NCBI GenBank assembly: GCA_040285855.1
Contig: JAUFOQ010000016.1
Coordinates: 2,108,001 to 2,172,000 of the forward strand
Origin: Eukaryota sp. GEM-RC1
Lineage: Eukaryota
DNA length: 64,000 nucleotides
Reading direction: 5' to 3'
Part shown: positions 27,601 to 61,046 of the stretch, one piece after another
How positions within the stretch are numbered: the first letter of the stretch is position 1
Layout of the letters: the number at the start of each line of letters is the position of its first letter
Notes under the pieces: model-generated
Database searches by the model: none
What the model was told of the DNA's origin: nothing
Seen by the model: only the letters and a program-made list of their open reading frames with translations
Translations under genes and position numbers: made by a program

Positions 27601-28060
27601 AAGCAGCATAAGAAGAAGAATTAAGACCAACTGATGAATTGAGCACTTTCTCGGCTAAAGGGCTTACAGGAAAAACCGGAATCGTAACTTGATGCAACGA
27701 AGGTGTACAAGGAGCAGGAGAATCAGAAAAAACAGCAGACGGCAATTGATCAGAAAGAGAAGGAGCATTCAAATTGGAGAAGGACTTTCTCATAACCAAT
27801 ATATTGGAAAGTGGAGGATACGGGTTTCGGTGAGGCAAAGAAGAAGATAAAGAAGTGACATGATGAGGAGCAACCAGAGGTCTCGCAGCAGAAAAAGATG
27901 ATGAAAGAAACGAAGCCGACTTACCACTGAAACGATTTACAAGGTCAGGGGGGTTTTTTGGGAAGATGATGAGAAGCAGATTTTGGAAGAAAATTGCCAG
28001 AAGGCATGTGGGAGGAAAAAACCCACTGAAAATGAAAATGAAAACAATGCTCATGTCAAG
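24688..28060 (-). mobile_element. Near full-length CRE/SLACS-like non-LTR retrotransposon (CCHC knuckle, RT, REL), frameshifted
   Basis: CSNCGQSGHCITTC knuckle, KAAGPSG, GIRPIAVGE, VDFKNAFNS, GVKQGDPLGP, GYMDD, CQCG..H..C, RGD..ADV..EKFK. Confidence 0.9.
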
Positions 28061-28507
28061 AGCTTCAACGAAAAAATTGATGACGTCGATACTATTCCAG
28101 AAAACACTGCTTCGGAATACTTAGACTTATCATTTATTCCATCAACTTCTAACTAGGTGGAAAGACTATTCAGTCGTGCAAAATTAACTCTCGGTATTTC
28201 TTCTTATTTATCTAATTATAGGGCAGCTGAGAGGACGTTTACAATCAAAAATGTTCGAGAAACAATTGTTTCTTTTATACAAAAGAACTTGGATTTAGTC
28301 AAATCAATTGTGAGTAAGAATCCTCATCAGACAACAGGATTAAATTCGGCCGAGCTTGTTATAGATGTCGATTCAGAATGATAGTACGTTGATTTTTGTC
28401 GTATGATAATAAAGAATTAATTGTAATTAATTGCAATTAATTAATTGTTGGTCTGTAGAATTGAAATTAATTAATTGTTGGTCTGTAGAATTAATAATTT
28501 AATTTAA

Positions 28508-30575: not shown

Positions 30576-31575
30576 CAATCTACCCTCCCATTATGACCAA
30601 ATTCTCACTGTCCGACTTTTTGTCTTCCCTTAACCGATTCCCTTACTCCAAATAAACGTTTCCTTTTTCGTATCTTCGGTGTCAACATCATCGTGATCTC
30701 TTTCGTTCATGTTTTTGATGGTTATCATAAACAAAACTCACATTTTGACTTCACATATCTGTCTCCTATTGCTACAACATCTTTGATGGCTCACGTGTTG
30801 TTAATTATCACTTGGCTAACACAATCTCATGTGTTCTGGTCAGATCTTATTCCTTATAATCTCCTCCCCCTCGAACCACTCTAGATCATGTCAAACAATG
30901 TTTTGGTCTTGTCTGTGGAGGAAATTTGTGTTGAGAGAGAAGCTCTCTCAAAAACAGTCACTTCCCCCTCAATAACGCCTTTTCAGCATTCCTCCTCCAT
31001 CACAATCACCAGAAATTCTATTGTGCACTCGTACGTGCATAGTTCTCTCCTAATTGAATGTTAGTGAACATTTTTTCCTCCAAATAACGCTTATCCACTT
31101 GCTGTGAGTCATAGCACCTCATCCTCTCCCTAGATAGGCGCTTTGAAAGTTATTGCCTTTCTTTTATCGCGATCTGAAATCCTGTACCAGATCATTGCTT
31201 TGGTGATCTTAGCCTTTACACTTTCTCTTTATAGTTGTTATCTGTTGATAAATGCTGAAAGCAGCGGTCAAACTCCCTGTAGCAGTTCATATTCATCAAA
31301 ATTGTCACGGTGTCTCTTTGATTTTGCCCAAACATCTGTTCACCTAACTGGTGATAGATCCAGCTCCAATTCTCCCTTCAATAGACACACGGTTGTCTTA
31401 GCTTGTTGTTTTATTTGTTATAAACGATCGTCGATCGCTGTTCATTCTGTAAAAACCAAACCCTCCGAATAAGACTGGTCTGACACCTGGTCATATTGGG
31501 AGGGTAGACTGTACCCATATTTAGAGACATGTAAGATTAATAGCTTTTCCATTTTCGACATTCCATTGCACAACA

Positions 31576-36454: not shown

Positions 36455-37659
36455 ATGGACGGTTTGTCTATCTCTTCTTGGACTGATCGTAGAGTCTACT
36501 GCTCCTATTGTTATTGATAATGGATCCCATTTGTTGAAAACCGGATTCGCTGGTGATGATGCCCCTCGTATTGTTTTCCCTTCGATCGTCGGTCATTCTA
36601 AGCAGCAAGGGATGTTCAGCCGTGATTTTTATGTCGGCGATGAAGCCCAATCTAAAAGACACGCTCTTTCAATTAAATACCCAATTCAGAATGGTATCAT
36701 CACTTCTTGGGAAGTATGTGTTCTCTACTCGTGTTTTTATCTCAGGACATGGAAGTATGAATCTCTTTTCTTTATGATCTCAGAAAATCTGGCATCATAC
36801 TTTCTATAATGAATTAAGATCAGAACCCAGTGAAAAACTTGTACATCTCACAGAACCACCATTGAATTCTAAGTCCAACAGAGAAAAAATGACCCAAATC
36901 ATGTTTGAAACTTTCAATGTTAAAGGAATCTACATTACATCATCTGCAGTTCTTTCATTGTACGCATCTGGTCTTATGACAGGCATCGTTTGTGATTCTG
37001 GTTACGATTGCAGTTGTATTACTCCCATCGACGAAGGATATTGTCTTAACCACGCTTGTCAACAATTTGATATTGCCGGTGGTGATCTCACCAATTATAT
37101 GAACAAACTTTTGTCAATCAGAGGTCTTGTATTCCCTTCATCTGACGTTGAATGTGTGCAAGTCATGAAAGAAAAAGAGTGCTATGTTGCTCTGGATTTC
37201 GACCATGAATTAACAAAAGCAGAAAGATCTTCAGCTCTTGATCGTCACTACACTTTACCCGATGGTCAAGATATCACCATAGGATCTGAACGTTTCAGAA
37301 CACCCGAAGCTCTCTTCAAACCAACTCTAATTGGTCTTGAATCTCCTGGTATCCATGAGCACATCAACAAGTCAATCATGAAGTGTGATGTTGGACTCCA
37401 TCGCGAATTGTATCAAAATATTGTGTTGTCCGGAGGTAGTACAATGTTTGATGGAATCGACAAACGTATGGAGAAGGAAATAATCAACCAAGCACCCCCT
37501 GGTACTCAGATTAAGGTTGTTGCTCCCCCAGAAAGAAAACACTCTGTGTGGATTGGAGGTTCCATTATATCATCTTTGACAACCTTTGAATCTATGTGGG
37601 TTACTCGTGAGGATTATGAAGAATGTGGTTTCTCAATCGTTGACAGACAATGTTTTTGA
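36455..37659 (+). CDS. Divergent actin; join(36455..36461,36493..36713,36746..36754,36784..37659), 370 aa
   Basis: [34 protein letters not shown] (after splicing), [25 protein letters not shown]. Three GT-AG introns of 31, 32 and 29 nt restore the frame. Confidence 0.92.
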
Positions 37660-37928
37660 CTTACCTGACTTCGATTTCTTCGATGATGTGTAGGGAAAGT
37701 CTCTTATTACTTTGGCAGACGATTTTACTTTACAAATAAAAAACTCTTTTCACAAATATTGATTATGATCCTTCAATCTGAACTCGGGCCAATTTCTCTT
37801 TTTGAAAGAAAACTCATAATCCTAGATAATTCATGACACAAAGAAAACATTAAGATATTAAAAAATGAAACGGCGAACAAGAGAAGAACGTGAATTTATC
37901 AGTGTTATACCATAACCGAATTTTCAAA

Positions 37929-38651
37929 GATTCTGGGTAAATGCACCACATTATGCACCACATATTCTATTTATTTTGTAAACTGCACCACATTCATAAT
38001 GCACCACATTAATATAACCACACCACACATCACCAGTCAACATTAGGTACCCTGATCAACACGAATGTTGAACATTGTACAATTGTGGATTACTTAAGAT
38101 CCTTGGAAGGCAGATGTTCTTTCAGCAAACAGAATGTAACTAACATCAAGAAAAAGAGAACACAGAAGACTAAACTTACATCGTTCCAGAGCATGTAGAT
38201 GACCAAAATGACCTCATTTGTATCAAAGAACTCAAGGGATTTGTTACCTCTTAAAAGCTGGTTACAGATCGAGAACAACTGTGTAATAAAACATGGTAAT
38301 CTCTGCCAAACAACCTAGACGAAGATTACTTAAGGCAACAATTATGTTCTCTCCTTCGCGAGCTTCCTAACCTCTGCTTCCTGTTGCACGTAGACCTTGG
38401 AGAAGACTTCCTGGATCTCCCAATTAGAATCCATTTAAGTCTGCTCTTAGAGATCCGTCCTCCATTGAACTATCTGTTAGGCGTACAAGAATTCCACCTA
38501 ACAAGGCCAAAGATAATGTTTTGTCCTTTTGATCTATAAATGGTGTTTGCTGTGCCTTCTGTAAAATGAAAAATATATTATGTGGTGTAAGTTATATTGT
38601 GTGGTGCAGTTTACAAAATAAATAGAATATGTGGTGCATTTACCCTGAGTC
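37929..38651. mobile_element. Non-autonomous Mutator-like element
   Basis: About 60-bp TIRs (gggtaaatgcaccaca..tattctatttattttgtaaactgcaccaca) and a 9-bp TSD attttcaaa/tttttcaaa with one mismatch. Confidence 0.8.
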
Positions 38652-38874
38652 TTTTTCAAATGCCATGCGCCTATGGGTCATGGCTTTCGGACGCATGGCG
38701 CATTGGCAATACTGCGCATATGAACACATGTCGATAAATCCCGTATTACTGGTTTGCATTTGCAAATCTGTTCTCATAAACTACCTTACACTTCATCAAT
38801 GCGCGAAACTCATCCCACCGACTGATAAAAGTAATGAGAAAAGGGTTTTTGAACAAAAACAGTCAAAAAAAGGT

Positions 38875-41582: not shown

Positions 41583-42097
41583 ATGTTTTTGAAACCCAAA
41601 CTCGCTCAAGATGCGCTCTTCACGCTTTAAACAACTTTTTCCAACGTTCTGAAGTGTCATTAGATGAATTAGAAGCCATTGCTGCTTCTCTCTCACCAAA
41701 TTCTTTATTTTCCCCACATCATTCTTGGTTCAAATGGGGAAACTATGATATCAACGTTATTTCCATTGCACTGCAAAAACGAAATTACTGTATTGAGTAC
41801 TTCGACAAACGTTTACCTCTGAAAGACATCTTTTCCAGTTCAACCACCTCTTCCGCCCTTCTCCTGAATTTCCGTTGCTGGTCAGACTTCATTCCATTCA
41901 AAAAAACCCGTCATTGGGTTACTATACTATGTAAACAAGATGACTGCTTCATCAACATGGATTCCAAACTAAGAGAACCTCTGTCACTTAACAAAGAATC
42001 TCTACTAGAATATCTGGAATCTCTTGAGGATTTACAAGTTCTTGTCATTAAACAAGAGCTTGATTCTCATCAAGACTGTAGTTTAGAAGAAGCGTAA
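41583..42097 (+). CDS. Josephin-domain deubiquitinase (JOSD1/2-like); probable missing T in T5 41586-41590
   Basis: In frame upstream of ORF 41654: ETQTRSRCALHALNN (catalytic Cys), then GNYDINVI, RHWVTI and NMDSKL. Confidence 0.85.
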
Positions 42098-42741
42098 CAT
42101 GAACGTTGAAGATCCAGGTGGATTAGCACTGCGCTGGTTGATTCTAGCAGATGAACAGTATTGTCACTAAAACCACAGGGAGAAATGATGATCATTTTGG
42201 CTGCAAAATGAAGAAACAAAAATAAAACTGTTAAATTGTCAATATTTGTAAGGAGAATCGTTATACCGCCAAACAATGACATCATGGACAATGGGAATAT
42301 GAAGTTAAATGAAATCAAATGGATTGAAATTGAGCAGTTTGAGATTAAAAGAAATAATATAGAAGTGACTAAAATACCAAAAAAGAAGCGACACAGACCA
42401 TTGGATAAACTAGTAGGTCGATGTTCAACTGCTGATACCACAGCAGAAAGTGTAAGAAGAAGTGTAGTAGTTAAGGACGAGAGACGTGTCCAGTAGTGAT
42501 GAAGTGATGACACAAAGAAGAGCGAGTGTAAAAGAAGTAATGAAGAAAAACGCCACACTGAAAACGACAAGTTCTTGTGCATTTTGAGAAGGAGAACTAG
42601 GGAAGATAAATGACAGAGAACGGTGAGACATATGTGACCAAAAGAAAGAAAACAGACCAAATAAGCCAGAGCTACAGCAAACAATGCTTCAATTGATCGG
42701 GGTAGGTAAACTTCTGGTCTTATCTGATGCCTAGAGTGCAT
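42070..42741 (-). CDS. Multi-pass membrane protein, unknown function
   Basis: 223-aa ORF with several long hydrophobic segments. Confidence 0.6.
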   Translation of the reverse strand: MHSRHQIRPEVYLPRSIEALFAVALAYLVCFLSFGHICLTVLCHLSSLVLLLKMHKNLSFSVWRFSSLLLLHSLFFVSSLHHYWTRLSSLTTTLLLTLSAVVSAVEHRPTSLSNGLCRFFFGILVTSILFLLISNCSISIHLISFNFIFPLSMMSLFGGITILLTNIDNLTVLFLFLHFAAKMIIISPCGFSDNTVHLLESTSAVLIHLDLQRSCYASSKLQS

Positions 42742-43844
42742 AAGTAGTTTTCATTTTGGGTGAATATCCCCACACACCCAATTCCCACAAACTCTTTTTA
42801 CTTATGGGATATACTTTTGGAATACTTTGGGACTCAAGACTCGACTTAACGAGCATGTCTATCCACGCTTCGGAAGACACCAAAGTGAGGGATGTTTGGT
42901 CCTATCTCTGGATGGGGACGATCCATCTTCTGATGAGTCATCAGAGACTCTGATGATGCTTCTGTGAGGATCCTCTTGCGTGAATTTTATTCCCCTTCCC
43001 TTTCCTCTCCCCAACAATTCCCCCATCTCCTCTTCTGTGGTCTGTTGTGTCCTTTTATACATGCCATTATCCTTCCTAAGGTTATCTGAAGTACAATCTA
43101 GTGCAGAACTTCACTTCCTTCGTATTCAATCGAGGTAGCTTCTTTCTTCCATTAAAGTAAGTTGAAGTTGTATTTCCCATATGTGATTTTAAATTTCTGA
43201 GATAAATATTGTTTATTCGTAATTAGAACCAACCAATGTGTGCTGCAAATAGGGATCATTACCTACCGATATATTTGTCTCGCAAAGGCAGTTGCTTCTG
43301 CAATTTCCAATTGTTTAGTAATATAACCATTGGGTTTTTAAGACTGTATATCATTGGTCTATCGCACAGTAGCAATAATCAGTCATATAGAATGCTTAAA
43401 GAGAGGACTGGATGTTGTCACACTTGTTTTCAAGGTGTTTGAGAGAAGTCAAAATGAAGTAAAAGTAGGAACAAAGGAAGATCTGATGATGGGGACTGAG
43501 TGTTTCTAAAAGGAAGACGAGTCTTGAGTTTCTGGCAAAAGACTTCTGATCATTGTAGCCTGAATAGAGACCGGAAAAGGCGCATCTTAAAAGATAGAAT
43601 CGTGAATGAAACTAACATGAAGATATTCTGAGAGAGTGAGGTATAATGACTAAAATTGTTGAGAGGAGGTAAGATAGTTGTACACCGTATCTAGAGAAGG
43701 AGACAAAGTTTTGCCATAAATTAACCGAGTTGTAAAGTGGAAAGTAAACTGTTGACAAACTAACAATCAAGTAGGAAACTGAATCCTGTCGAGAGGAAAG
43801 TGACGAGAACGAATCACAATGTCGACAATTGTTATTTCCTTCCC

Positions 43845-44790
43845 ATGTCTCCTGTCAGTCTTCCCGAAGTAGTTCACGGCCCGGAGTATACACTTTATCC
43901 TTGTGGTTCATCCTCTCACAACCATGGTGACACTATATTTCCCCCGCCTCTTAAGAAGTCTCACCTGTCTTCTGTAGATGACATCCCACTGTATTGCCTT
44001 ATTGATTTTAAAACGGTCATTACCGATAGTGAACGACTTACTCCACTCCTTTTCAATGTTAAGAAGAAATCTCTTCCGAAATGCACTACTACAGAATCTT
44101 CAACAGAAATTGTTTCTGAAGAACAAGAGGCTGCTGAAGTTCCAACAATCAGTGAAGAAATTGAAGTGTCCAGGCCAGAGCTGGTACCAAATGCGGAGGA
44201 TGATCAAATCATCCTTATTGTCCTCACATTTATTTACACCAATTTCGTTTCTACTGTTGTCATCAGTACCAAAAAAACAAGTGATTTTGATGGTGTTCAA
44301 ACAATTACTTTTCCATCAGAAGAAGTCATGATTAATGGTCTTATATCTTTACTGTCCGAGAAAAAGCCTAGATTGCTTATAAGTTATAACTCTGAAAAAT
44401 TTTTGTTCCCGTTTTTAATTGCACGATGTAAACTTTGGAACATCTCCACCACATTTAATGTGGATAGGCCATTCAGGCCTTTTATTCCCATCTGGTTCTA
44501 TAGATGGTGTAAGCAAAGCGAATTTGGACCATTTATTTCCCTTAACATGACAAATGTTGTAAAGTCAACCTATGTTTTCAAAGGTGGTAGAGGTTTAGAA
44601 AATGTTTGCTCCAAATTGTTTCAAAAGGCAATACCTAATTTATTTTTATCACCAACTGAATTCAAACCTTACTTCCAACCAATTCAAAAAAATCCTAAAA
44701 ATATCAACGGTTAGCCCTGAACGGAAGAGGGAGTTTACTTTGCTTGCTCAAAATATTAAAACTTCCAAGTTATGGATGGATGACAGAAAA
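43845..44790 (+). CDS. Degenerate family-B DNA polymerase 3'-5' exonuclease-like domain (probably the N-terminus of the Fanzor ORF)
   Basis: Motif order matches PolB Exo: LIDFKT (ExoI-like), DDQIILI, FPSEEVMI..KPRLLISYNSEKFLFPFLIAR (ExoII YNxxxFDxPxLxxR-like), ISLNM..GLENVCSKL. Catalytic Glu and Asp are substituted. Confidence 0.65.
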
Positions 44791-44859
44791 CGCAACTCTC
44801 TGGTTGAAGATTTGCTGAACAAAATTAAGATGTTGTCCGAATTGAAGAATTATTTTTTG

Positions 44860-47701
44860 ATGAAGAAATTCAGCTTGTTTTAGACCGCCCTCCGATTAAA
44901 GTCGTAAAAAAAGGATTGGATAAGGTTTTCAGAGATTATGAAAACATTCAATTAATTAAAATCTGTTCTAAACGAAATCAAAAAAGCAACTGTGAGGGGG
45001 AACCACCTTCTTGAAGCATTTGCTTCTACGTGAATTTGAAGATTTTGGAAGAATCGAAGCTGAATCAATAGTCAAAGAAAGAGAATTGATGTTACTGCAC
45101 GATGACCCTTCGTTGTCCATGATTGGAAATGATTCTGAGTCTTCTGAGAATTGTAATATCTGCTATAATTACAAAGACTTTTCGGTTCGCTTACCAGATT
45201 TGAGTCCTTTTTTGGCTCTTGGATCAATAAGGCACGTTCTCCGACGAATGTATGTGGAGAAAAAAAGGCTTGCGGTATTTCCGACTTGAAAATGTCAAAA
45301 ATAGAAGCAGAAGCAGTTTTACAAAATGAAAAATTTGATCATTCTTTGGAAACAAAAAATCGCATTGCACTACTGTAATAATTTTTATCCAATTCTTGAC
45401 TCTCTGTCTCATGAAATTGGAACTAACAACATTTCTTTTCCTAATTTGGATTTTATGTCAGGCATTTATCATTATACGGCTAAACAAATTGAAACCAATT
45501 ATGCTAACAATTTGGCGAAATACTTCCACAACTATGTCTTTCGCTACTTTAACATTGTTACGTTGAAGAACTATCGTCTTAAACAAATTAAAGAGCAACA
45601 CTTAAAGAAGGAATTGAAATCAAAATTAAATTCCATCAGAGAACTGATTATTGATGGAAACTTTGAAGACATTCCAATTGATGATCATATCATTTTCCCC
45701 TTCCCGCAATCAGAATTGACTTTAATCTTTTTTGCATATTTGAAATTCTGTTTGTTCCCTACCATTGCCAAAGGCAAGAATCTTTACTACGCTCAGAAAG
45801 TCAAGCCACTACAATTTCTTTCTCATGCTGTTTATATCAACAGAATCATTCAGTCTTTTTGTTCAATTGATGGAAAACCCTTAAAGGTTAATAATCCGTT
45901 CCCAATGACCAAGACGTTGCTCCCACAGCATATTAGATTAGATACTGCTTGGATAAACCAAAGAGTTTTAAATTTGAAAGGTTCCGCTAACGTTATTCGA
46001 AAGGAAGTATTTGACTCTGTACTTACCTAAACTGCTATTACATCATCAGGATCATTTGGTCTGAAGTATTCTTCGATTGTAACAGATGGCATTTCCTGTT
46101 CCTTGGTTATGATTCGAAAAGATTTGCTGGATGAAAACGGTAACACCTTTGAAGATTTTACCGCAAAACCACTAATATCTTCGGAAAGATATATTGACTC
46201 TTTAACGTCGGAAGACATTGAAAAAATGAACCTGACAGAAAAGAGAATAATTGGCATTGACCCGAATGAATATGACTTGATGTTTTGCGTATCTCCAAAA
46301 ACAAATGAAGAGATATTAGTTGAAGAATTTTCTTGTTCCGACAACAGTCCCACGAAAAAACGGCTACCTTCAGAAATGAGACTGAAACAGAAAGGTGGTA
46401 TTAAAAAAAGAAAAAAACAATTGAACCAATGGAGACAAACCCCATCTCAACGAGTACGACTGAAACCAAACCACTTTTTGACCAGCTTCAGGTACAGTAC
46501 TGGGGAGAGATCATATGACCGAAAAAGCAAGAAATATCGGTTGACTGAAAGAAGAAAACTAAAAACTTCCTTCTTTGAAATTACGAAAACAGAAACTGAA
46601 AGATCGCTCCAAGATTATACAGTCGAAAATTCTAATGGTAGAACTGTTTCTGGTCAAGAAATCCTCGACGAATTTGCTCTTGCCGTCTCTAGAGGACAAC
46701 AAAGGTCCAGTTTCAGTGATGAGTTCGAGACTTACATCAAAGAAGCTGAACGGAGTTGTGTATACCTGAGTGATTTCTATGAAGACGATTGGTTTACGAA
46801 AAGGAAGTTTCAAATTTATTCCAACAATCAACAGAGTGAAAAGAATATGTTGGAAAGGTTTAAATTAACCTATGGATCTCCAGAAGACCTTGTCCTTGGT
46901 TACGGGGATTGGAGTTCTAAGGGAAACACAAGAAAAGGTAAAACTCCAGCTATTAGAGGAGCAGAAATCCGAAGAATGTTAAGAAAATTCGGGTATAAGG
47001 TATTTCTAGTTGACGAATACCGTACCAGCAAGTCCTGTTCAAAGTGTGCTGCTCAAGGACTATTTGGATTATGTACAAATGATCCATCTATCAAAGTTTT
47101 AGGCCCAAGAGGACTGCGTCAAATAAGACGGAAGAAGAAGAAACTCAAGGAAAAAGTACTGGTCTACAACCGTAAGGATCCACCGAAAAAGAGAAGCTTT
47201 GAGGACGAGTGGGAGAAGATAAAGAAGTCCGTAGAAGTAAAAGCAAAGTCAACACCATGGGGGCTGGTAAAATGCAAAAGGTGCAAGACTTATTGGAACA
47301 GAGATCTCAACTCTTCGATAAATATCTATTCCATTATCGAAGCCGCCATCAAAGGTCAAGCTAGACCATCTATTCTCGAGAGATCAAAAACTTTAACAAC
47401 TGATTTCGAGAGTGGTAATGTTACTTTGAAGAGAGATCGAAAAAAGACTGCAGCGAAAAAGACTCGTAAAGAAAGAGAGTGTGGAGAATGTGGACAAACA
47501 GGTCACGACATACGAACATGTCCACAGCTAGATGAGTCAAACCAGGGTTCACCTAAAACTGGATCGAGAAAAAGAAAAGGAGGAACCCCAACGAAGGCAG
47601 TCAAAAGAAGAAGATCTCCCTTGAAGAAATCAGTCCACCATCAACGGTCGGGCAGCGCTATGTGTATGAAGCTATCTCAGTCTCACCGTATCATCTCATA
47701 G
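44860..47701 (+). CDS. Fanzor1 (eukaryotic TnpB-like RNA-guided RuvC endonuclease); disrupted in this sequence by homopolymer frameshifts and one in-frame TAA at 46028-46030
   Basis: IETNYANNL..YFHNYVFR, PFP..LPQHIRLDT, IVTDGISCS, RuvC-I IGIDPN (46259), YGDWS (~46904), RuvC-II VDEYRTSKSCSKC (47012), CKRC and RuvC-III WNRDLNSSINI (47303). Confidence 0.92.
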
Positions 47702-47815
47702 CATAGCGTGTCTGTGATGCCTAAATGGATATGACCAAAGTGGGAGCAGGATTTACTTTGGGAGGATTATCCATTTGGAATGAACTTCACAGATGGAACA
47801 TGAACAAACATCTAG
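47650..47815 (+). ncRNA. Putative Fanzor omegaRNA (scaffold plus guide)
   Basis: Stems cgctatg/catagcg and tatga/tcata span the stop codon; nested stems tctgtga/tcacaga, aaatggata/tatccattt and ccaaagt/actttgg follow. This 3'-end position is canonical for TnpB/Fanzor RNAs. Confidence 0.7.
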
Positions 47816-47846: not shown

Positions 47847-49175
47847 ATGATTGACATTTGGCTTCTTCGTGATGATAAGGATGGTAATTCTGAAGCTGTA
47901 AGGGAAAGTCAGCGACGTAGATTTGCTGATGTCACTCTTGTTGATCAGGTTATCGATAAGGACAAACAATGGCGTGAATCGGTTGTCAAGAAGGAGAAAC
48001 TTCGTGCTGAGCTCAATAGAACCTCCAAGCAAATCGGCAAACTTGTCAAGGATGGTGAAGACATCACTGAACATCGAGCTACTGTTGCCTCTCTAAAACT
48101 GGAAATCACTCAATTAGACGCTTTTGAAGCCACTCTTCTTTCAGAACGTGATGAAATACTTAAAACCATTGGCAACATTGTTGAGCCCCAAGTTCTTTTC
48201 TCAAACAATGAAGAACAAAACCGTGTCATCTCAACCTTCTCTTCCCCTGAACCCCGCGATCACCCTGCTACCCACAGTCATGTCGACCTTCTCCACATGA
48301 TCGGTGGTGTTGACTACGAACGTGGAACAAAAGTTGGAGGAAGCCGTAGTTATTTCTTGACTGGTCCCGGAGTCAAACTCAACATGGCTCTCATCATGTG
48401 TGGACTTAACTTCCTATCTGATCGGGAATACACTCCCTGTCAAGTTCCTTACCTAGTCAAACCAGAAGTAATGGCAGCTACAGCTCAGTTGTCAGACTTT
48501 GATGATCAACTCTACAACGTAGGTTCAGATAAGGATCTCAAGTATCTCATTGCTACTTCAGAACAGCCTTTGTCCGCTCTGCATCAAGGGGAATGGTTAG
48601 CACCTCAGGATTTGCCAAAGAGATATGCTGGTTTCTCTACTTGTTTTAGGAAGGAAGCAGGAACTCATGGAAGAGATACGTTAGGAATCTTTAGAACTCA
48701 TCAATTTGAAAAGGTAGAGCAGTTTACAGTCACGGAACCTTCTAAATCCAAGGAAATGTTTGATGAGATGATTGGTAATGCTAAGGACTTTATGGAGCTG
48801 TTAGGTCTTCCTTATAGAGAGGTTGAGATTGTTTCAGGTGCATTGAACAACGCTGCAGCTGTTAAACATGATGTTGAAGGGCTTTTCCGACATTCTAATG
48901 TCTATAGAGAACTGGTATCGTGCTCAAACTGTACGGATTATCAGTCAAGAAGACTTGATATTAGGTATAGAAGTGCAGGAAAGTCTGGATCTCTTAAGGG
49001 GCAGGCTAAAGAGTACGTTCATTTGTTGAACTCAACTTTAACGGCTACTGGAAGGACCCTTTGCTGTATATTGGAGCAGTATCAGACCCCTGAGGGTATT
49101 GAGGTTCCAAAGGCATTGGTTCCTTATTTTGGATCTGACTTTATTCCGTTTGTCAAGGCTCCACTGAAGAATTAG
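47847..49175 (+). CDS. SARS1: Cytosolic seryl-tRNA synthetase
   Basis: MIDIWLLRDDKDGNSEAVRESQRRRF, YLIATSEQP, CFRKEAG..GIFRTHQFEKVEQF, ELVSCSNCTDYQSRRL, HLLNSTL. The conserved start is ATG 47847. Confidence 0.97.
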   Translation: MIDIWLLRDDKDGNSEAVRESQRRRFADVTLVDQVIDKDKQWRESVVKKEKLRAELNRTSKQIGKLVKDGEDITEHRATVASLKLEITQLDAFEATLLSERDEILKTIGNIVEPQVLFSNNEEQNRVISTFSSPEPRDHPATHSHVDLLHMIGGVDYERGTKVGGSRSYFLTGPGVKLNMALIMCGLNFLSDREYTPCQVPYLVKPEVMAATAQLSDFDDQLYNVGSDKDLKYLIATSEQPLSALHQGEWLAPQDLPKRYAGFSTCFRKEAGTHGRDTLGIFRTHQFEKVEQFTVTEPSKSKEMFDEMIGNAKDFMELLGLPYREVEIVSGALNNAAAVKHDVEGLFRHSNVYRELVSCSNCTDYQSRRLDIRYRSAGKSGSLKGQAKEYVHLLNSTLTATGRTLCCILEQYQTPEGIEVPKALVPYFGSDFIPFVKAPLKN

Positions 49176-50329
49176 ATTTTTAAAAAATGTTAGGTTTTTT
49201 TGTTTTTGAAAATTAGTGTTAAACTTTATATTTACTCATTTGTTTTTGTGGTGTGTTTTCATTACCTAGACTTAGTCTTTAGGGGAGCTTGATTGTAAGT
49301 TAATTTGAAGTACCATAAATTTTTACAACATTTGTTTGTGCTGTACTTCTGTTATTAAGATGACATTTTATCCAGATTGACATCAAACTGGCACAGTTGC
49401 CGCCTTTGTGTTCTATATTTGTTATATCGTCGAGGTCCTAATACAAGCTTAGTAGAGGGTATGCTTGTATAGTTTCACAAAATAAACTCATAGATTTCTT
49501 TTTACAAAAACTGATCTCTATATAATACCGGAGAGAGTCATTTTGGAATTATATATAGATTTCATTTACTAGTTACATAAGCCCTTAGCCATTATAATTT
49601 GAAAAAAAAAGACTGGAACATCTGATGGACGAGCCTGTAACGCAAGATAAGCTAAACTTCAAGGAAACAATGATATTGAAGTTTGTCAATTTTTACGGCA
49701 ATTATATTTGTTCTATAGACATTAGCTTTAGGGAAGCGTTTGATCTCAAGGTGGTCGATAATTTACCAGATTAACGAAAACCTGGTTTATTTTGGTTTGA
49801 TTAATCTACCTCTCTGTCAGGATTGATCAGCATACTTCAAAAGTAACTGATTGATGTTATTAAGTTTCCATTTCAATGGTAGTGATTTTGTAATGATAAA
49901 AATTTCATTTTTCAAAACAGAAATTCAAAGGACTCTAATACCTAGGCCTTTTTTATTACCACCATATTCAAATTGAGATTAATGGATGTCGCAGCGGTAG
50001 AGATCGAAGTATACACCACCTGTTCTCAGACGATCATTTAAAAAAAATTTAACATCAAAAAGTGCCAAAAATAAATGTAAAATATATTTAATTAAAACAA
50101 AATATAACCCAAATACAAACAAAATATGTATTTGTTCCGTTTGGTGCCTAAGTTCTTTAAATCAATTTTCACAAAGTTGTATAAAGACTGTGGTACTGTT
50201 GACCAGGAATTTTCGGTGTCCAGTGTTTCATAGCTTTTATTATGATATGTATTTTTGTACCCTCCATCAATAAACTGTTCTTTAAATATAGTACTAGTAC
50301 AGAAAGGGATGATCAAATGCATTGTGTGT

Positions 50330-53300
50330 TCATCTATGGAAACTGCGAGAAACTGTACTAGTACTGATTTAAAGAACTTAGGCACCGAACGGAACAAAGA
50401 AAAAATCAAACGGTTATGCCAAATTGATAAGTTAAATCTCTTATTCTGAGTCTTACACATAGATCCAAAATCAGTTAAAAACTTGGAAGCCATTTCACCA
50501 ATACTATCGAAAATAGAAATAGCAAATGGAACAAATACAAATTTTGAATATACATTTTGATTGAGTTTAGCAACATCTTTGGAAGAGAGATGTTTATTCG
50601 GCACCCAATAAGGTAACCTTCCTACAAACTATGAAATTGTAAAAACAAACAAATTATACTAAGATTAAATCCAAACGACTTCATCACCACGCGGTAAAAG
50701 ATTACGTTTATCAACATTAACCTTCACACCAAACTTGTACAATTTCTCAATTAATCTAGAGAAATAGAAAGGCATGTTCCGATATAAGGAAAACACTATA
50801 CGGTTTTTCCATTCAGCCATTCTAAACTTACGCTTCTTTTCTTTACACAATTCATCGAAATCCTTGAAAAATTGATCACCAGCAGGACTAATAGATCCAA
50901 AAGAGAAACAGCAAAAGGTTGAAACACAAATTTGGAATATGAGTTTCTATTTAATTCTTCTACTTGAGAGTCATACTTGGAGTGTTTGAGCTTTTCAGCT
51001 GCTGTTAATGGATTAAAAGAAGAATCTAATATCCTACTAACACAAGATTTGTTACATACATCTACTGTAGTAAAATCCATAAATGATTGACTCGACTTAA
51101 GCCACGGAGTATGTAGATCCCCTCTTTTTGATCAGTAAATTCATTTTCTGAAAGATGATTCAAAACTGGTTCAACTTTAGAGTGAAAACCATGTGCTTTA
51201 AACATGGAATAACAAGAATCACGTACACCATCATGAATTACTGCACGGAGATGAATAAAATAACGACAATTAATTAAATGACGAAAAACACCATTAGCTG
51301 CACAAGAGCACGTTGAATAGTTTAAAAAATTTGCAGGCCAAATAGCCAAACGAAGACGCATATTGATCATCCAAGCTTCATCAGATAGATGTAATCCATA
51401 CACCTTTGGAATTTGAGAAATAAATCCAGAAGGACCACTATTACAAAGATCGATTAAAAAAGCAGCGAACTCGGGACTATTAGTTTTAGCCAAGCTAATA
51501 CGATTATTAAAGTCCAAGAGTTCAAACTCCTTGTCAATTTATTTTGCAGCTTACATACAGCAGACGGTACAGATGAAATATTTTTAAAGGAGTCTCCTTC
51601 AAATGAGCAGGGAACAAAGATTCCCACATTTCAGGAGACAAAGATGATACCAAATCTTTAGCAGATTGAATCCAACGGCAATTACTGGAATTCAACAGAT
51701 TGATTCCATCCAAGGGAAACCGTTTCAAAAATTCAAACATAAAATTCTTAACACCTCCTAAAAGAGCAGATTTTCTAATGATTTTTGCATGGGTGAAACC
51801 TACTCCTGCGACTTCAGAAGAATAAAAAGCATGAAATGGAATCTTAGACTCATCAATTTCAGCCAAGTTAGAGAGAAAATTTGTTCTAATAGAATTAAAT
51901 TTCTTGGCAAATGTTTCAGTAAGGGAATAGTCTAATGAACGTAGAAAATGATTAATTTTCCCGGAAAAACAGAAAACAAATCAATTTTACGTTTTTCAGC
52001 TGTTTCTAGGTGATTAAAACCTTTTGAATTCAAGCCATTAACATAAGTTTGAGCACATGGATCTACTGTTGTAACATCAAGGATAATTTGACTAGAATCA
52101 ACAAAAGGACCATGTAAGTCATCTCGACGAGAATTATTAATTAAATCAAGACCCAACTTACTAAATAAAGGTTCAACTTTGGCATGAAATCCATGAGCCT
52201 TAAACATTTCAAATGTAACATCTCTTACAGCATTATGAAGAACTGAGCGAAATTGAATAAATTTGGGGCATTTAATTACACGTCTAAAAGTTGCACTGCG
52301 ACGATGGTTACAAATGCACTCAGAATTGTCCAGCAATTCTGTAGGAAACAAACCTAAACGCAATCGCATCTTTAATTTCCAAGCCTCATCAGACAAATGC
52401 AAACCAAAAGGACATGGTTGTTGAGTGATCAAACAAGTTCAATTCTTAATATCATTTAAGAAAGCAGCAAAAACGGGATTATTAATTTTAGTAATACTAA
52501 AACGATTTTCAAAATCCAGGTTGTCAAATGCCTTCAAAAGCTTATTCTGAAGTTTGACCACACATAAAGGGAGAGACAATGGAGATTTTTCAGGAATACT
52601 GGGTAAATGAGAATGAAAACAGCTATTCCAAATATCCAAATCCAAATCGTTAATAACTGAGACTAACGAAACTAACCAAGGAGTAGACTGAATGAGATTT
52701 TCAGTAAACGAAAAGCCGTATCTGGATTTAAATTCAAATAGAAAATTCTTCATTCCACCAATAAACGCACTTTTGGTTAAGTATGAAGCTCATGAAAAAC
52801 CCACACCGCCAAAATTAGCTGATGAAAACGCGTGATAAGGCAATTTCGAGTCATTAACATCTACAAGATCACTTAAGAACTTAGTTCTCAAAGAGTTAAA
52901 TTTGCTGGCTAAATCAATAGTAAGTTCAGGATTGACTGAGCGCAAAAAGTGATTGATTTTGGACGCAAAACAAGTCGTCAATAGGGAAAAAGAAATATGT
53001 TTACCAATTTTCAGCTCACCAATCTGTTTAAGCTTCACCGAAATTTGTTCGATGAATTATCCACCTTCAAACGTAATTGATCGCCATTACCAATGAAAGT
53101 ACCCAAAAACTTAATAGCATCGACACTATAATTGGAAAACGGAATAGTATGCCCTTCAACAATGAACTCAAAAGGTGATGAACCGATCAGAAAACATTTT
53201 TCATAATTCAACTGAAGACCAATCTCATTAGAGAGCTCTATAAATACTGGAAAAGCTGATAATAAATCATCAATAGATCCAACTAAAGAAGCATCATCAG

Positions 53301-53450
53301 CATAAGCACACAAATTCAAAGAAGGGAACTTCCTTTGAAACTTACGAAAAATTGACTACAAAGCCACACAAAATAAAAATGGACCAAGAGGGTCGCCTTG
53401 TTTGACTCCACGTTGGGAAACCAGATTATCAGAATTATAAATTAGATGAA
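50330..53450 (-). mobile_element. CRE-like RT-REL retrotransposon (53450-~51970 plus ~50590-50330) interrupted by a second CRE-like copy (~50594-51940)
   Basis: GVKQGDPLGP, AYADD, GGVGF and REL ..LETAEKRKIDLF resume as SKDVAKLNQNVYSKFVFVPFAISIF. The inner copy has its own REL and a 3' UTR matching 78-520. Confidence 0.85.
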
Positions 53451-54027
53451 AAGTTAGATGAAAAAAAATTGTTTTATTTTGTTGTAAATGTATTTGCATG
53501 TTCGTGAAAAATTGTCAAAAATACAAAAAATGTAAATAAAGTATACTGAATTGTAAATACATGTAGTATGTATTACTTCACTGTTGCAAATATACTCTAA
53601 ATAACATAAATCAATAGAAATTAAATATATTTATGAGGAGCCCTGGTATACATCATAAACCAATAAAATAAAATTAACAATGCGTTCTAAACTGTCTACA
53701 TGTACTACACCCGTTGGATAGATTCTAAAACGAGGGTGGCACTAAATCGAGGAAAGATTGTACAGTCTGGATCAGTTCGATGACGTCATCTACCTGGTCC
53801 AGACCAACTCCAAATTATTAAAACACATTCCTACATGTCAAGGACTTGTAGACTTCATCTTCATTTGTGGATCACAACGTATTTTGAAAAAATAATCGCG
53901 AATAATGCAACAGTCCCGAAAATTCCATTCATACAGAATTAACTGAACATCGGCGGTTATAAACAGGTATAATAAGAGACATAAGATACAAGATTTTTAA
54001 AAGAAAACTACAAGGACTAACTGTGCT

Positions 54028-55816: not shown

Positions 55817-56347
55817 ATTTGGAGTCGTTGTTTTATTGATTTTACATCGAAATTTGATAAATTTATATGGTATATTAAATATACTTTTGGTAATATTGGT
55901 CCAGCCGGTTTAAAGTTTTGGTAATGGTTATACTAGTAAGTTTGAAAAATTTCAGTTCCAATTTGTTCAGCTATGAGTTACAAGTACACCACACGTTTGC
56001 GGTTATTACAGTCTGAAGCAGGTTACACCAACGCAGCATCTAAACGAATACTAGAATATTCAATCACAATTCTGATGTATTGTATTCAAAAATTGGCAAA
56101 TGACAATTAGCACATAGTGAGTGCTTTAACATACTTCGCACTGAGTGCAATTGGTAACTTAGCGTAAATGTTATAACAAAATGTGCTTCAAGAAATGGAC
56201 GGCTAATGCTTGCTTAATTAAACGCTGCTTGCAATATCCTAAGAATAACTAAATTTGTACCATCCAAAAGGTGTCTAGTTTTCTCTTAATAGAACCAATG
56301 TTTATTTTTCTAATATAAGATATTAGTATAATTGACAGTTACTACTA

Positions 56348-58238
56348 CAGTATTCAGAGTATTTAGTCTGGATAAACAATTAGTCTGGACTTTAATTAGT
56401 CTGGTCCAGACTAATTCATGTTTAAATCTCTTTCAAAAGGTCATTTTTAAACAACAATTAGTCTGGTTTTCACAATAAAGTGCAAATACACTACACTACA
56501 AAGATACATATGTATTCAGGGACTGTCAAAAATATATTGCAATATATTGCAGGGCCAAAAAGATTTGCAATACAGTATTGCAATACTGCAATATATTGCA
56601 ATAATTGGAAGCAATATAAATATTGTTGAGTAAATTATTTATTGTACTAATTCCATCAATAAGTCATAAGATCATCATTAGGCATCATCCAAGTTGACTA
56701 GTTTCTGACTGACCATCTTGCGAACCAAACTAATGTCCCAAAACTCTCTGTTCACAGAAAGAAATAGTTGATTGGCAAGTCTTCGATCAGATAAGTTGTG
56801 TCGTGACATCCCTTGCGCCATTCGAGCTTTATTCAAAAGTCGTTCTACTGCATTTGAAGTTGTTGGGATGAACTTTAAATTGCAGTAACCTACTGTTTCA
56901 CCTCTCATTCGAGTAAAGACATCTTGAACAGAGGAAACAGGTCCAGGTCGTTCATCAATTTCTTCCTCTTCATCATCATCACTATCACTACTCACATTAT
57001 TTATTATTACTTTACCATCTAAAGATGACGACAATCGAGATTGACCAGCAACTATTTCAATTTCATGTTCTTTAAAACACTTAACCATAACTTCTTCCTC
57101 ATCTGTAAGACTCAACCCTTCATTCTTCAAGATTTTCAGCACTGCTGATTTGAAGATGAATTGGTTGGGTGGACATCGTGGAGCATCTACTGCGGGATAC
57201 ACGAGCTGTTTTTTCATCTCTTGATTTGCATTATATTGGCAAAATACGAGCATTGTTGATTTAAACAAATGCTCAGCATCCAATGAATTAGAATTCTCCT
57301 TTTGCAGTTGAAGACTGACAAATTGTAATTCCTTCATATGATGCATTAATAGAGTAATCCTCGTTTCTTCAGCGAAACTTGGAAGTAAATCAATCAGTTC
57401 ATCGTCTTCAACCTCATTGAGCATGTGGTCGATGGGCAATTTAAGTTCTAATAATCTTTTTATTAAAAAAAAGTTTTTAACATGTCATGAGTTGAATACC
57501 ATCTAGTAACATTACGTTGCTTTGGAGCTAACTTTGTGTAATTTCGGAGATTGGTAATTCGTGTCGGTTCTCTGAGAAGTTTCATCACCCGATCCAATAA
57601 ATCATCAGAGAAAAAATTGGTTTAAAAATATTGTTCAAAATTGAAATTATTGCAATATATTGCAATACAAAATGAGGCTGCAATACAGTATTGCAATACA
57701 CAATACACAGTATTGCAATTATTGCAAAAGTGCAATATATTTTTGACAGTCCCTGTATGTATTACAAAAAGAACTTTGATAGTTAGTGGACTGTGGTATC
57801 AGGTTTGAAAGCTACAGAACCCAGGAAAATACAACTTCTTGGAATTGGTAGAAGAAACTTTGAGAGAAGAAAACGGTTAAAGAGATGAAAGATGATTAAC
57901 ATATGCTCGTATAGCAATGATTCTTTGTGGATTGTCGTTAAAGACTAACGGAATGTGGGAAACGAGACAGTTGCAAGCATTCATAGCCAATTATCCAGAA
58001 GAATTTGAAGGAATGTTGCCAGACATTGTTTCTGACAGTGATTGGGTTTAAGGTAGATATAGTTAAATGTTTCATAGTTTTTCTGATACTACAAGTTGTA
58101 AAAAGTTGATCCAGATTAATTCTTTTTTATATTCAATAGTCTGGACTTAAATTAGTCTGGACCAGACTAATTAAAGTTTTTAGCAATAAATATCACACTA
58201 AAAATTAGTCTGGTCCAGACTAAATACTCTGAATACTG
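56348..58238 (+). mobile_element. Tc1/mariner-superfamily (pogo-like) deleted element
   Basis: TA-flanked TIRs cagtattcagagtatttagtctgga / tccagactaaatactctgaatactg, subterminal attagtctgg repeats and a transposase-like C-terminal remnant AMILCGLSLKTNGMWETRQLQ (~57915-57980). Confidence 0.8.
56517..57755 (-). mobile_element. hAT element with partial transposase, nested in the pogo-like element
   Basis: TIR cagggactgtcaaaaatatattgca / tgcaatatatttttgacagtccctg, perfect 8-bp TSD tatgtatt and ORF 56678-57439 with FIPTTSNAVERL..LFLSVNREFW. Confidence 0.93.
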
Positions 58239-58881
58239 TAGTTCAGTATGTAGGATATAAGAAAAACCGATTTATGTGCGGAGAAAGACACACAACAAGA
58301 AAACAACAAACAAATAAACACTATTAAAGAAAATTATCAAACGAACTACCTAATTCCGAAAAGCAGTTGCCTCCAAACAACTTTGACATGATGGGATCAA
58401 CATATCTATTCATAGACCTAAACATCGATTATAATAGGATATTGTCTACAACTAGTAGAATACTTTTTATCAAAAATGGGGATTATGCGAATGACGGCAA
58501 ACGAAGTCGTCTATGATGTGCAAGTGATACAACAAGAATTTGAGAAATATCGAAGAGAGCTTAGATTATTACTAGTAGTATTGATTTACTACTGTTTGAG
58601 ATGGTGTATACATAACTGTTATTTGTTTGTTCAAGCCAGCAAAAAGACAATCATTAAATAAACCTTTCTTCTTTGATTAAGTTTGGTTGCTCATTAATGA
58701 TACAGCTCTATTTTAGACTGTTATGATTAAACAACTTTCCCAATCAAAAGAATAGAAATGATACCAACATTTATGATACACAATTGACAAACAAACAAAA
58801 GAACTGATTCGTCTCTACAACAAGTACATTAGTGTAATAATGCACTTGACCGGCTCCTCAGTTATACCGGAAAAAAAATCT

Positions 58882-60047: not shown

Positions 60048-61046
60048 CATAGTTCAGATATACACGGGTTTGATTTTTCATATACTGTATATACACAATA
60101 TACATATACATTTGTATATACTGTGATATACACTAAGTAACAATTGTATATACAGTTCATACACACATACATCAACAAATACATATATATTAACTACTTT
60201 ATTCAACAACAAGTCTAATCGTCAACCACAAAACGTTTAACAGTCTTTTTTTGTATTCTTTCTTCTTTTTACACCTGCATCTTTGGACACAGTTACCATG
60301 GTCACATCCTTCTTCATTTCCGAACAGCAACCAGATAATCCGTCATCATCACTTACCGTAATCTCTTCACTGTCGTCTTCAACATTGATTTTTGGCACCT
60401 CTTCGAACGCTTCGTTTAAGTCAAATTAATATTTACAAGAACTGAGGTTAATAAGTGAAATATCATTTGGAAATCGATTAACAAATTCAAAAATGAAATT
60501 TTTCCGCCCCTAAAAAAGCAGATTTACAAAGCTTTGACGATTTAGTAAAATCAATACCACCAAAATGAGCAGAAGTAAACAAGTGACTTCTAAGTAACGT
60601 TGAATCAACTTCTAACAATGAAGCAAAAAATATAATCCTCAACTCGTTAAAAGATCTAGAAAAATTCACAGCGCTTGAAGGAGCTGTAGATCTAAAAAGA
60701 TGTGTGATTTTTGCGGAATAGCAAATTTTTAAAATATACAACTTAATGTGGTTTTCTATGCCATATAAAGAAATTTTGTTGAGTTCTGGGAGTATTTAGA
60801 CTAGCCCATTTCAAAAGGTCATTACTTATTTGCTTAATGACCTGAATCTTTGTCCTTGACAATGGACTAATACAGTCTGGTCATCCAGTAGACTCTGACA
60901 AGTTCATAAACCTTTGTATAACAAGTAACTGAACTCATATACAAATATACACCGTTAACCAACATCTTGGGGATTTTTATATACACTGTATATACAGATT
61001 TTCTGTATATACAGTATATACAGTGTATATGTACATCTGAACTATG
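60048..61046. mobile_element. Non-autonomous hAT element carrying retrotransposon and pogo fragments
   Basis: TIR catagttcagat(a/g)tac, perfect 8-bp TSD tttgagac (60040-60047, 61047-61054) and TATAC repeats. Internal 60408-60787 is homologous to ~25478-25858. Confidence 0.88.

What the first reader, a model, noticed from the sequence alone, without database searches (positions are those of the whole stretch)
43845..47701. Giant Fanzor1 apparently fused to a degenerate PolB 3'-5' exonuclease-like domain
Seen: six single-base corrections, all in homopolymer or doublet runs (A7 44686-44692, T6 44853-44858, A4 44958-44961, CC ~45006, A7 45260-45266, A6 ~45355-45360), plus the TAA at 46028 give one ~1284-aa ORF: exonuclease-like domain, Fanzor1 REC/WED, RuvC and zinc finger, basic tail. 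Established: Fanzors are RNA-guided nucleases usually of several hundred aa, carried by transposons or viruses. I know of no described fusion to a PolB proofreading domain. ExoI reads DFK and ExoII reads YNSEKFL, so the domain looks catalytically dead. Inference: it may bind DNA ends or RNA at the break, or be a relic of a viral or Polinton-like carrier, defining a new Fanzor architecture.
Basis: partly seen in the sequence, partly recalled or inferred. Interest (0 to 1): 0.9.

Follow-up and report, generated by a model that had tools for sequence, protein, structure and literature searches.

The report
Fanzor fused to proofreading exonuclease
This is a broken copy of an RNA-guided DNA-cutting gene (Fanzor) joined to a DNA-polymerase-type trimming domain; unbroken relatives in a protist keep all catalytic residues of both parts, so the family likely cuts DNA and then trims the cut end, a pairing I found in no paper searched.

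Summary
The fusion is real as a family trait, and this copy is broken. ORF 43845-44714 hits PF03104 (PolB exonuclease, E 3e-11); ORF 46031-47701 has Fanzor1's RuvC triad and zinc finger. Two multi-copy protein families of Eukaryota sp. TZLM3-RCL are annotated as unbroken exonuclease-Fanzor1 proteins. The window aligns collinearly with one of them across seven disruptions: four frameshifts backed by homology, two more disruptions (shifts or stops, undecidable) and the TAA at 46028. The 28-residue exonuclease-to-Fanzor junction is the same length in both families and the window, and the fused proteins form one clade (IQ-TREE 99/97; FastTree unsupported). The window's tail holds a CCHC knuckle, and a strong hairpin follows the stop (candidate omega-RNA). 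Likely role (inferred): trimming the 3' flap that Fanzor leaves, so that homing repair can copy the element back. Whether the breaks are decay or assembly error is open (about 65:35). The scan's notes held no earlier report of this.

The parts
43845..44714 (+). ORF1 (289 aa): short low-complexity leader plus the N-terminal three quarters of a PolB-type 3'-5' exonuclease domain; homology leaves this frame near 44690
   Evidence: PF03104 E 3.3e-11; 31% identity to P0016 residues 268-505, E 1e-22
44004..44012 (+). ExoI motif, degenerate: D-F-K (relatives D-V-E / D-I-E)
   Evidence: codons GAT TTT AAA; alignment
44385..44405 (+). ExoII motif, degenerate: YNSEKFL (relatives YNCDKFD / YLNTFD); the Asp position reads TTG
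44809..44823 (+). ExoIII position, degenerate: DLLNK (relatives YCVND / YCMRD), in a shifted frame
   Evidence: frameshift-aware alignment
44686..46030 (+). Disrupted stretch: four homology-backed frameshifts (about 44690, 44856, 44960, 45006), two further disruptions in 45260-45360 (two shifts or two stops), and TAA 46028-46030
   Evidence: clustering in 35% of the gene p 0.009
44809..44910 (+). Exonuclease-Fanzor junction: ExoIII helix runs through 28 residues into the first Fanzor1 strand (PPIKVVK), ungapped against P0016
   Evidence: 28 residues in all 8 relatives with the whole junction, plus one partial; continuous helices in the P0016 model
44892..46030 (+). Fanzor1 WED/REC half (broken)
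   Evidence: tblastn of P0016, 30% identity, E 1e-93 for 45296-47389; P0016 model matches SpuFz1, TM 0.76 over the target
46031..47701 (+). Open C-terminal frame (556 aa): end of WED, RuvC, TNB zinc finger, tail
46253..46276 (+). RuvC-I, GIDPNEYD (catalytic Asp kept)
47009..47047 (+). RuvC-II VDEYRTS (shifted catalytic Glu kept) and first zinc-finger pair CSKC
47273..47317 (+). Second zinc-finger pair CKRC and RuvC-III WNRDLNSS (catalytic Asp kept)
47480..47521 (+). CCHC zinc knuckle CGECGQTGHDIRTC inside a basic tail of about 110 aa that the TZLM3-RCL proteins lack
   Evidence: sequence; zf-CCHC_6 E 0.048, below cut-off
47721..47778 (+). Long hairpin just after the stop codon: candidate omega-RNA scaffold stem or right-end structure (inferred)
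   Evidence: -22 kcal/mol, z -4.3, 0 of 200 shuffles (window chosen after seeing the fold); 16 of 1500 random 70-nt windows fold as well; no Rfam match of note
47847..49175 (+). Right neighbour: intact host seryl-tRNA synthetase; bounds the element
   Evidence: PF00587 and PF02403; start MIDIW

Best explanation
The window holds a broken copy of a Fanzor1 gene fused to a family-B-polymerase-type 3'-5' exonuclease domain, and in the unbroken relatives this exonuclease likely trims the 3' single-stranded flap that the RNA-guided cut leaves, so that repair can copy the mobile element back. Shown: the fusion, its conserved 28-residue junction, intact exonuclease and RuvC motifs in relatives, multiple copies, a 2A-like motif ahead of the protein, and loss of the exonuclease residues plus seven disruptions in this copy. 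From literature: SpuFz1 nicks the non-target strand 16-17 nt past the TAM, so the TAM-side end carries a displaced 3' tail; OMEGA nucleases are proposed to drive restorative homing; the T4 polymerase exonuclease takes part in intron homing. Inferred: the element inserts between TAM and guide-matching flank, so that tail is sequence that must be removed before the end can prime copying of the element, and a tethered PolB exonuclease, which acts on single-stranded 3' ends (established knowledge), would remove it and block simple re-ligation. The 2A motif would free the protein from whatever is translated upstream. The window's lineage lost exonuclease catalysis first (several multi-base codon changes) and then most likely decayed.
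For: Unbroken fusions in two families with about 21-31% identity to each other. Exo motifs complete in P0006, P0007, P0016, P0164 and P0166; P0001 has ExoIII D>E. RuvC triad kept in all full-length copies and the window. Junction 28 residues in 8 of 8 whole junctions and ungapped in the window's DNA, which does not depend on a gene caller. Shared insertion between ExoI and the next strand in all three lineages. Fused proteins form one clade, 99/97. P0016 model: Fanzor part matches SpuFz1/PpFz1/GtFz1, E 1e-15 to 1e-21. Cut positions: PMC10432273 passage. Restorative homing: PMC13565253 passages. 43Exo and DexA in intron homing: passages of PMC12153337 and PMC2988022. 2A consensus GD(V/I)ExNPGP (PMC3708506) met in 4 of 5 proteins that reach this region, NLGP in the fifth.
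Against: No activity, RNA or transcript was tested. The window's lineage kept the domain at 31-34% identity while losing its catalytic residues, so catalysis is dispensable in at least one lineage. Nearly all Fanzor1s lack the domain (1 of the top 150 representatives has it; 0 of 80 viral loci), so it is not needed for homing in general. No transposase, terminal repeats or target duplication were found, so excision and homing are assumed. The exonuclease part of both structure models is low-confidence (pLDDT under 50 over most of it), so its position relative to the DNA is unknown. The 2A motif alone does not ensure skipping. FastTree on 125 rows gave the same clade with support 0.028.
Confidence: 0.5

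Rival explanations
1. End-destroying cutter: the exonuclease chews back cut ends so that repair is mutagenic (deletions), serving competition with rival elements or viruses, like engineered TREX2-Cas9 fusions.
For: Same anatomy and intact motifs. Engineered exonuclease-nuclease fusions exist (PMC13370227, search listing and start of abstract only).
Against: Fanzor guides come from the element's own flank (PMC10432273 passage), so the natural target is the empty host site; destroying it gives the element no gain. No guide array was seen in the window.
Confidence: 0.17
2. The exonuclease matures the omega-RNA: it trims the 3' end of the read-through transcript to a guide of about 15 nt.
For: The guide is the 3' end of a transcript running into flank DNA. 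The DEDD superfamily includes 3'-5' RNases (recalled). The window's tail has a CCHC knuckle of a type that often binds RNA (recalled).
Against: The domain is of the PolB DNA-proofreading type (PF03104; Pol delta best in PDB). Unfused Fanzors obtain mature guides without it.
Confidence: 0.12
3. Polyprotein cargo: exonuclease, Ulp1-type protease and Fanzor are independent accessory functions strung on one ORF for expression; the exonuclease acts in transposition or on free DNA, not at the Fanzor cut.
For: 2A-like motif and an optional protease module show a polyprotein logic. DEDD/DnaQ exonucleases are known accessories of other transposons (passages of PMC6338049, and PMC3627910).
Against: The linker is short, helical in the model and of invariant length across lineages with about 21-31% identity, unlike a cleavable spacer; the protease is absent from one of the two families.
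Confidence: 0.13
4. The window's breaks are long-read assembly errors, and the locus encodes a full-length live Fanzor with a catalytically dead exonuclease used as a nucleic-acid-binding module. This concerns this copy only and is compatible with the best explanation for the family.
For: 5 of 6 switch intervals hold runs of 6 or more (p 0.002); all seven disruptions lie in 35% of the gene (p 0.009); RuvC and zinc-finger residues are all kept.
Against: TAA 46028 is a substitution. Eleven host ORFs with 13 runs of 6 or more in total are unbroken, as is the 1.67-kb C-terminal frame with 5 such runs (long ORFs are selected for being open). Neither window ORF has a genuine near-identical cluster mate, which argues against a collapsed repeat. 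Three of the four sure shifts are extra bases, whereas long-read errors are mostly deletions (recalled). Replication slippage also favours runs.
Confidence: 0.35

Closest known systems
Fanzor1 (SpuFz1 8GKH, PpFz1 9CF0, GtFz1 9CER; giant-virus Fanzor1s)
   Same: WED/REC-RuvC-TNB core, DP(N) RuvC-I, Glu six residues before the zinc finger, RD RuvC-III; fold match TM 0.76 over SpuFz1; nearest unfused relatives are 600-800 aa (median 643).
   Different: About 300-residue PolB exonuclease directly ahead of the first WED strand, where unfused relatives have a median of 12 residues (100 rows); 1300-1750 aa in all; 2A-like motif; optional Ulp1-type protease; CCHC tail in the window.
Proofreading domain of family-B DNA polymerases (Pol delta, archaeal PolB, T4/RB69 gp43)
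   Same: PF03104; ExoI DxE, ExoII YN..FD, ExoIII YC..D in relatives.
   Different: No polymerase domain; insertion of about 50-95 residues after ExoI; fused to a RuvC nuclease; dead in the window copy.
T4 td intron homing (I-TevI with host-phage 43Exo and DexA)
   Same: A mobile element's endonuclease cut is processed by a PolB 3'-5' exonuclease during homing (passages).
   Different: There the exonuclease is borrowed in trans from the phage replisome and the cutter is protein-guided; here it is fused to an RNA-guided cutter. The parallel is inferred.
Transposon accessory DEDD/DnaQ exonucleases and 2A-like motifs of APE non-LTR elements
   Same: Mobile elements carrying a 3'-5' exonuclease or a GDVExNPGP motif near the N-terminus.
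   Different: Those are DDE transposons or retrotransposons; none in the passages read is fused to a Fanzor.
Cas2-DnaQ/DEDDh trimmer fusions (recalled) and engineered TREX2-Cas9
   Same: Exonuclease tethered to a CRISPR-type protein to trim DNA ends.
   Different: Cas2 fusions trim prespacers in adaptation; TREX2-Cas9 is artificial and uses an unrelated DEDDh enzyme.

Membership tests
Fanzor/TnpB | Motif D-X(125,275)-[TS]-[TS]-X-X-C4 zinc finger-X(5,50)-RD (PMC3627910) | tested here: met
   D 46259, TS 47024-47029 (254 residues apart), CSKC and CKRC, RD five residues after the last Cys
Fanzor | RuvC-II Glu six residues before the zinc finger; DP-type RuvC-I | tested here: met
   E-YRTSKS-C; GIDPN, with DPN as in SpuFz1 rather than the DPG consensus
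Fanzor1 | Closest to Fanzor1 by sequence and fold, with enlarged REC/WED | tested here: met
   P0007 best PDB sequence hits are SpuFz1, PpFz1 and GtFz1; P0016 model top 7 Foldseek hits are Fanzor1, Fanzor2 E 0.07. Tested on the relatives, linked to the window by alignment
Fanzor1 | omega-RNA at the element's 3' end with a flank-derived guide | tested here: inconclusive
   Hairpin 47721-47778, z -4.3; no second copy to define the end
Fanzor1 | RNA-guided, TAM-dependent dsDNA cleavage | not testable with these tools
   Needs biochemistry
Fanzor1 | Carried by a DNA transposon or virus (ends, target duplication, transposase) | tested here: inconclusive
   No terminal repeat pair flanking the gene, no Pfam hit under E 0.05 in 15 upstream frames; relatives are multi-copy on several contigs
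PolB 3'-5' exonuclease (DEDDy) | Sequence family PF03104 | tested here: met
   Window 43.5 bits, P0016 49.4, P0007 35.5, cut-off 23
PolB 3'-5' exonuclease (DEDDy) | Catalytic DxE, D, YxxxD in the window copy | tested here: not met
   DFK, FL, DLLNK
PolB 3'-5' exonuclease (DEDDy) | Catalytic DxE, D, YxxxD in the relatives | tested here: met
   P0006, P0007, P0016, P0164, P0166 complete; P0001 ExoIII D>E; fragment P0005 ExoI E>K
PolB 3'-5' exonuclease (DEDDy) | DnaQ-like / RNase H-like fold | tested here: inconclusive
   Model pLDDT 41; Foldseek best archaeal PolB E 2.7e-3, integrases alike; VIA best Z 6.4, rmsd 3.8, 116 aligned, RNase H-like folds
2A-like peptide | GD(V/I)ExNPGP near the N-terminus | tested here: met
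   Relatives only: 4 exact, 1 NLGP; none in six frames of the window. Skipping activity not testable here
Ulp1/SENP8 (C48) protease | His...Gln-x-Cys catalytic motifs (P0006, P0007 only) | tested here: met
   GTHWS and QPDGYNCG; SENP8 E 1e-6; absent from the P0016 family and the window

The most novel reading that the evidence does not exclude
A natural 'cut-and-trim' RNA-guided nuclease: a clade of giant Fanzor1 proteins in an anaerobic protist lineage that carries its own active proofreading exonuclease, is released from upstream translation by a viral-type 2A skip, and swaps further modules (a deubiquitinase-like protease, a zinc knuckle). It would be the first OMEGA/Cas12-lineage effector with built-in end processing and a ready-made editor for deletions or templated repair.
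Probability: 0.5. Interest if true: 0.88.

Novelty: new variant of a known kind. Interest (0 to 1): 0.76.

Why it matters
What Fanzors do for their carriers, and how their cuts are steered into homing rather than re-ligation, is open. A lineage that fused an end-trimming enzyme to the cutter makes this testable with one point mutation. Intact, multi-copy versions (KAL0225525.1, KAL0227451.1, KAL0212156.1, KAL0212775.1) can be expressed now. Engineers fuse exonucleases to Cas nucleases to change repair outcomes; this appears to be a natural version. The window adds a third lineage in which the exonuclease was kept but inactivated, which hints at a second, binding role.

Tried and rejected
No whole genome is held for the window, so other copies and element ends could not be mapped. 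No sequencing run was listed, so breaks and expression were not tested. Short introns as the cause of the breaks: the host has 29-32 nt GT-AG introns, but each of the 12 frame-restoring GT-AG candidates at the six breaks either removes sequence that aligns to P0016 or lacks the host-like GTATG...CAG ends; rejected for the first four breaks, not excluded for 45260-45360. TAA/TAG read as Gln: rejected, host genes end in TAA, TAG and TGA. Longer relatives of ORF1: 0 of 1166 candidates; exonuclease region of P0001: only itself of 2186. Viral contigs: 80 Fanzor loci kept of 437, none with the exonuclease profile; longest Fanzor frame 851 aa. Exonuclease-pattern scans gave 2 of 340 (whole PolBs) and 8 of 217, none with a Fanzor within 3.5 kb. 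Metagenomes: 0 of 374 and 7 of 128 with no exonuclease, three of them on contigs too short upstream. Phage records: no match. ESM Atlas: no usable hit for P0007; only sub-0.9 PolB-exonuclease leads for P0016 262-800. No 2A or protease remnant upstream in the window. Frameshift-aware alignment to the P0006 family alone was too weak. The exonuclease's donor (cellular or viral PolB) was not resolved. The primary T4 homing paper was not held, so it is cited through two other papers. Earlier scan notes held nothing on this fusion.
Full report
Setting. The window is from a gene-dense, AT-rich microbial eukaryote: host genes (kinase, UBC, PUF, actin-like, SerRS) use the standard stops and carry short GT-AG introns. 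It also holds many fragmented non-LTR reverse transcriptases. The locus lies between a 223-aa ORF on the minus strand (42070-42741) and an intact SerRS starting at 47847. No whole genome and no sequencing run were available.

Observation. ORF 43845-44714 matches the PolB exonuclease family PF03104 (E 3.3e-11) and ORF 46031-47701 the TNB zinc finger PF07282. The C-terminal ORF keeps GIDPN, VDEYRTSKSC, CKRC and WNRD, meeting the Fanzor motif of PMC3627910 (passages) and the shifted RuvC-II glutamate (passages of 10.1101/2023.08.09.552727, and PMC13565253).

Unbroken relatives. A search for longer relatives of the C-terminal ORF gave 1 hit among 7986 scored candidates: P0001, 1324 aa, of Eukaryota sp. 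TZLM3-RCL, with PF03104. I recall this isolate as a Skoliomonas (free-living metamonad); the passages read did not state it. Its cluster has 9 members; four (1120-1755 aa) span exonuclease and Fanzor at 92-94% identity. A phmmer search of 1.84 billion representatives with P0002 gave 2105 hits; among the best 150 (median 643 aa) one is much longer: P0016, 1473 aa, again from TZLM3-RCL, with a cluster of 4. It carries PF03104 (E 5e-13) and PF07282; 43 other long or top-ranked hits scanned did not, and a custom exonuclease profile hit 1 of the 150. The two families are only about 21-31% identical.

The window against P0016. tblastn gives 31.5% over the exonuclease (E 4e-23) and 30% over the Fanzor (E 1e-93); a frameshift-aware alignment runs collinearly from P0016 residue 241 onward with shifts near 44704, 44865, 44959 and 45011, stops at 45287 and 45302, and TAA 46028. 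The four middle segments score 67 against P0016 506-700, above all 500 shuffles (maximum 65, mean 32), a thin margin over the best shuffle. From the ExoIII tyrosine to the first Fanzor strand there are 28 residues in 8 of 8 whole junctions, and the window's DNA matches this without a gap. Since that spacing comes from raw DNA, the fusion is not a gene-caller artefact, although I could not see the relatives' DNA. Unfused relatives have a median of 12 residues ahead of that strand (100 rows).

One origin. On the RuvC-containing core, IQ-TREE (40 rows: 5 fused, 25 representatives, 10 viral; LG+G4, no mixture model, bootstrap not fully settled) groups the fused proteins at 99/97 with the window sister to the P0016 family at 97/91. 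FastTree on 125 rows recovered the same clade with support 0.028 (69 of 147 representatives were dropped by a motif filter). All three lineages share an insertion right after ExoI. Long branches and probably related hosts are caveats.

Catalytic state. Relatives read DVET/DIET, YNCDKFD/YLNTFD and YC.ND/YC.RD; five full domains are complete and P0001 has D>E in ExoIII. The window reads DFK, YNSEKFL and DLLNK. Several of these need two or three base changes, far more than the light decay implied by seven disruptions, so exonuclease catalysis was probably lost before the gene broke (inference). RuvC residues are kept in all lineages.

Extra modules. Five relatives that reach far enough carry L.LDGDVEANPGP (one NLGP), the 2A consensus of PMC3708506 (passages). 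The two families share the region ahead of it (P0006 and P0166, 64% over 129 columns), which suggests a common carrier end. P0006 and P0007 have a Ulp1/SENP8-type protease between 2A and exonuclease. The window has neither but has a C-terminal CCHC knuckle in a basic tail, and a hairpin at 47721-47778 (z -4.3; top 1% of random windows) where an omega-RNA would lie.

Structure. A model of P0016 262-1442 (108-row alignment) is confident for the Fanzor part and matches PpFz1, SpuFz1 and GtFz1 (E 1e-15 to 1e-21, TM 0.76 over SpuFz1); the exonuclease part is low-confidence and joins through helices. The window's ORF1 model is poor (pLDDT 41), and its matches show only an RNase H-like arrangement with archaeal PolB on top at E 2.7e-3. 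The exonuclease call rests on sequence.

Decay or error. For error: runs of 6 or more in 5 of 6 switch intervals (p 0.002) and clustering (p 0.009). For decay: a nonsense substitution, unbroken host ORFs and C-terminal frame despite similar runs, and no genuine 90% cluster mates. Introns do not explain the first four breaks. I put decay at about 65%.

Mechanism. SpuFz1 cuts the non-target strand after bases 16-17 and the target strand after 20-21 (PMC10432273, passages), and OMEGA nucleases are proposed to cut empty sites to restore their element (PMC13565253, passages and section 6.2). The TAM-side end then has a 3' tail of flank sequence beyond the insertion point. A PolB exonuclease removes single-stranded 3' tails, and T4's does so during intron homing (passages of PMC12153337 and PMC2988022; the primary paper was not held). 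I infer that the fused domain does this in cis (0.5). Rivals: mutagenic end destruction (0.17), polyprotein cargo (0.13), omega-RNA trimming (0.12).

Novelty. Ten full-text searches (listings and abstract starts) showed no paper on an exonuclease-fused Fanzor. Term searches within PMC10530073, PMC10432273, PMC3627910, PMC13565253, PMC10691335 and 10.1101/2023.08.09.552727 found the word 'exonuclease' 0 times (passages only); PMC11423790 had no 'fusion'. Supplements of PMC10530073 (2 files) and PMC10432273 (9 files searched, one picture-only PDF unread) had no 'exonuclease' or 'PF03104', but they list sequences without domain calls, so an unlabelled member could be there; bioRxiv supplements and subscription journals were not seen. 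The paper 10.1101/2023.05.03.539051 does not mention Fanzor (passages). Fusion was not found outside TZLM3-RCL and the window (see Tried and rejected). Verdict: new variant of a known kind; interest 0.76, carried mainly by the intact relatives.

Noticed in passing
P0006, P0007, P0016, P0164, P0166 (TZLM3-RCL), N-termini: 2A-like motif preceded by sequence that differs between copies (three kinds) yet is shared across the two families in P0006 and P0166: may mark a common carrier end, or translation by read-through from upstream ORFs.
   Followed up: partly
window 42890-42985: Strongest 70-nt fold of the locus (-25 kcal/mol), about 900 nt upstream of ORF1; 9-10 nt words at 42823 and 42879 recur in the 3' hairpin. 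Possible left-end structure, or chance.
   Followed up: no
window 9000-9700, 13100-15800, 22900-24700, 24700-28100, 50100-53500, 60400-60800: Several fragmented non-LTR retroelement copies with RVT_1 hits, 60-90% alike, some with a duplicated internal block of 1002 nt.
   Followed up: no
window 37926-38654, 30574-31513, 29543-30462, 56344-58242: Short elements bounded by near-perfect inverted repeats of 24-40 nt (MITE-like); 56344-58242 has nested repeat pairs around a 268-aa ORF without a Pfam hit.
   Followed up: no
window 36456-37659: Actin-like gene with two tandem short introns (32 and 29 nt) separated by a 9-nt micro-exon GACATGGAA.
   Followed up: partly
L024:5077-7629: Viral Fanzor1 frame of 851 aa (stop to stop) with a weak N-terminal PF00910 helicase hit (E 7e-4): perhaps another fusion or a read-through from a neighbour.
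   Followed up: no
L095, L096, L097 (viral contigs): Stand-alone ORFs of about 250 aa matching the exonuclease profile without polymerase motifs.
   Followed up: no
P0015, P0022 (TZLM3-RCL): Fragments of a third Fanzor family in the same genome, 51-54% identical to P0002; N-terminal architecture unknown.
   Followed up: no
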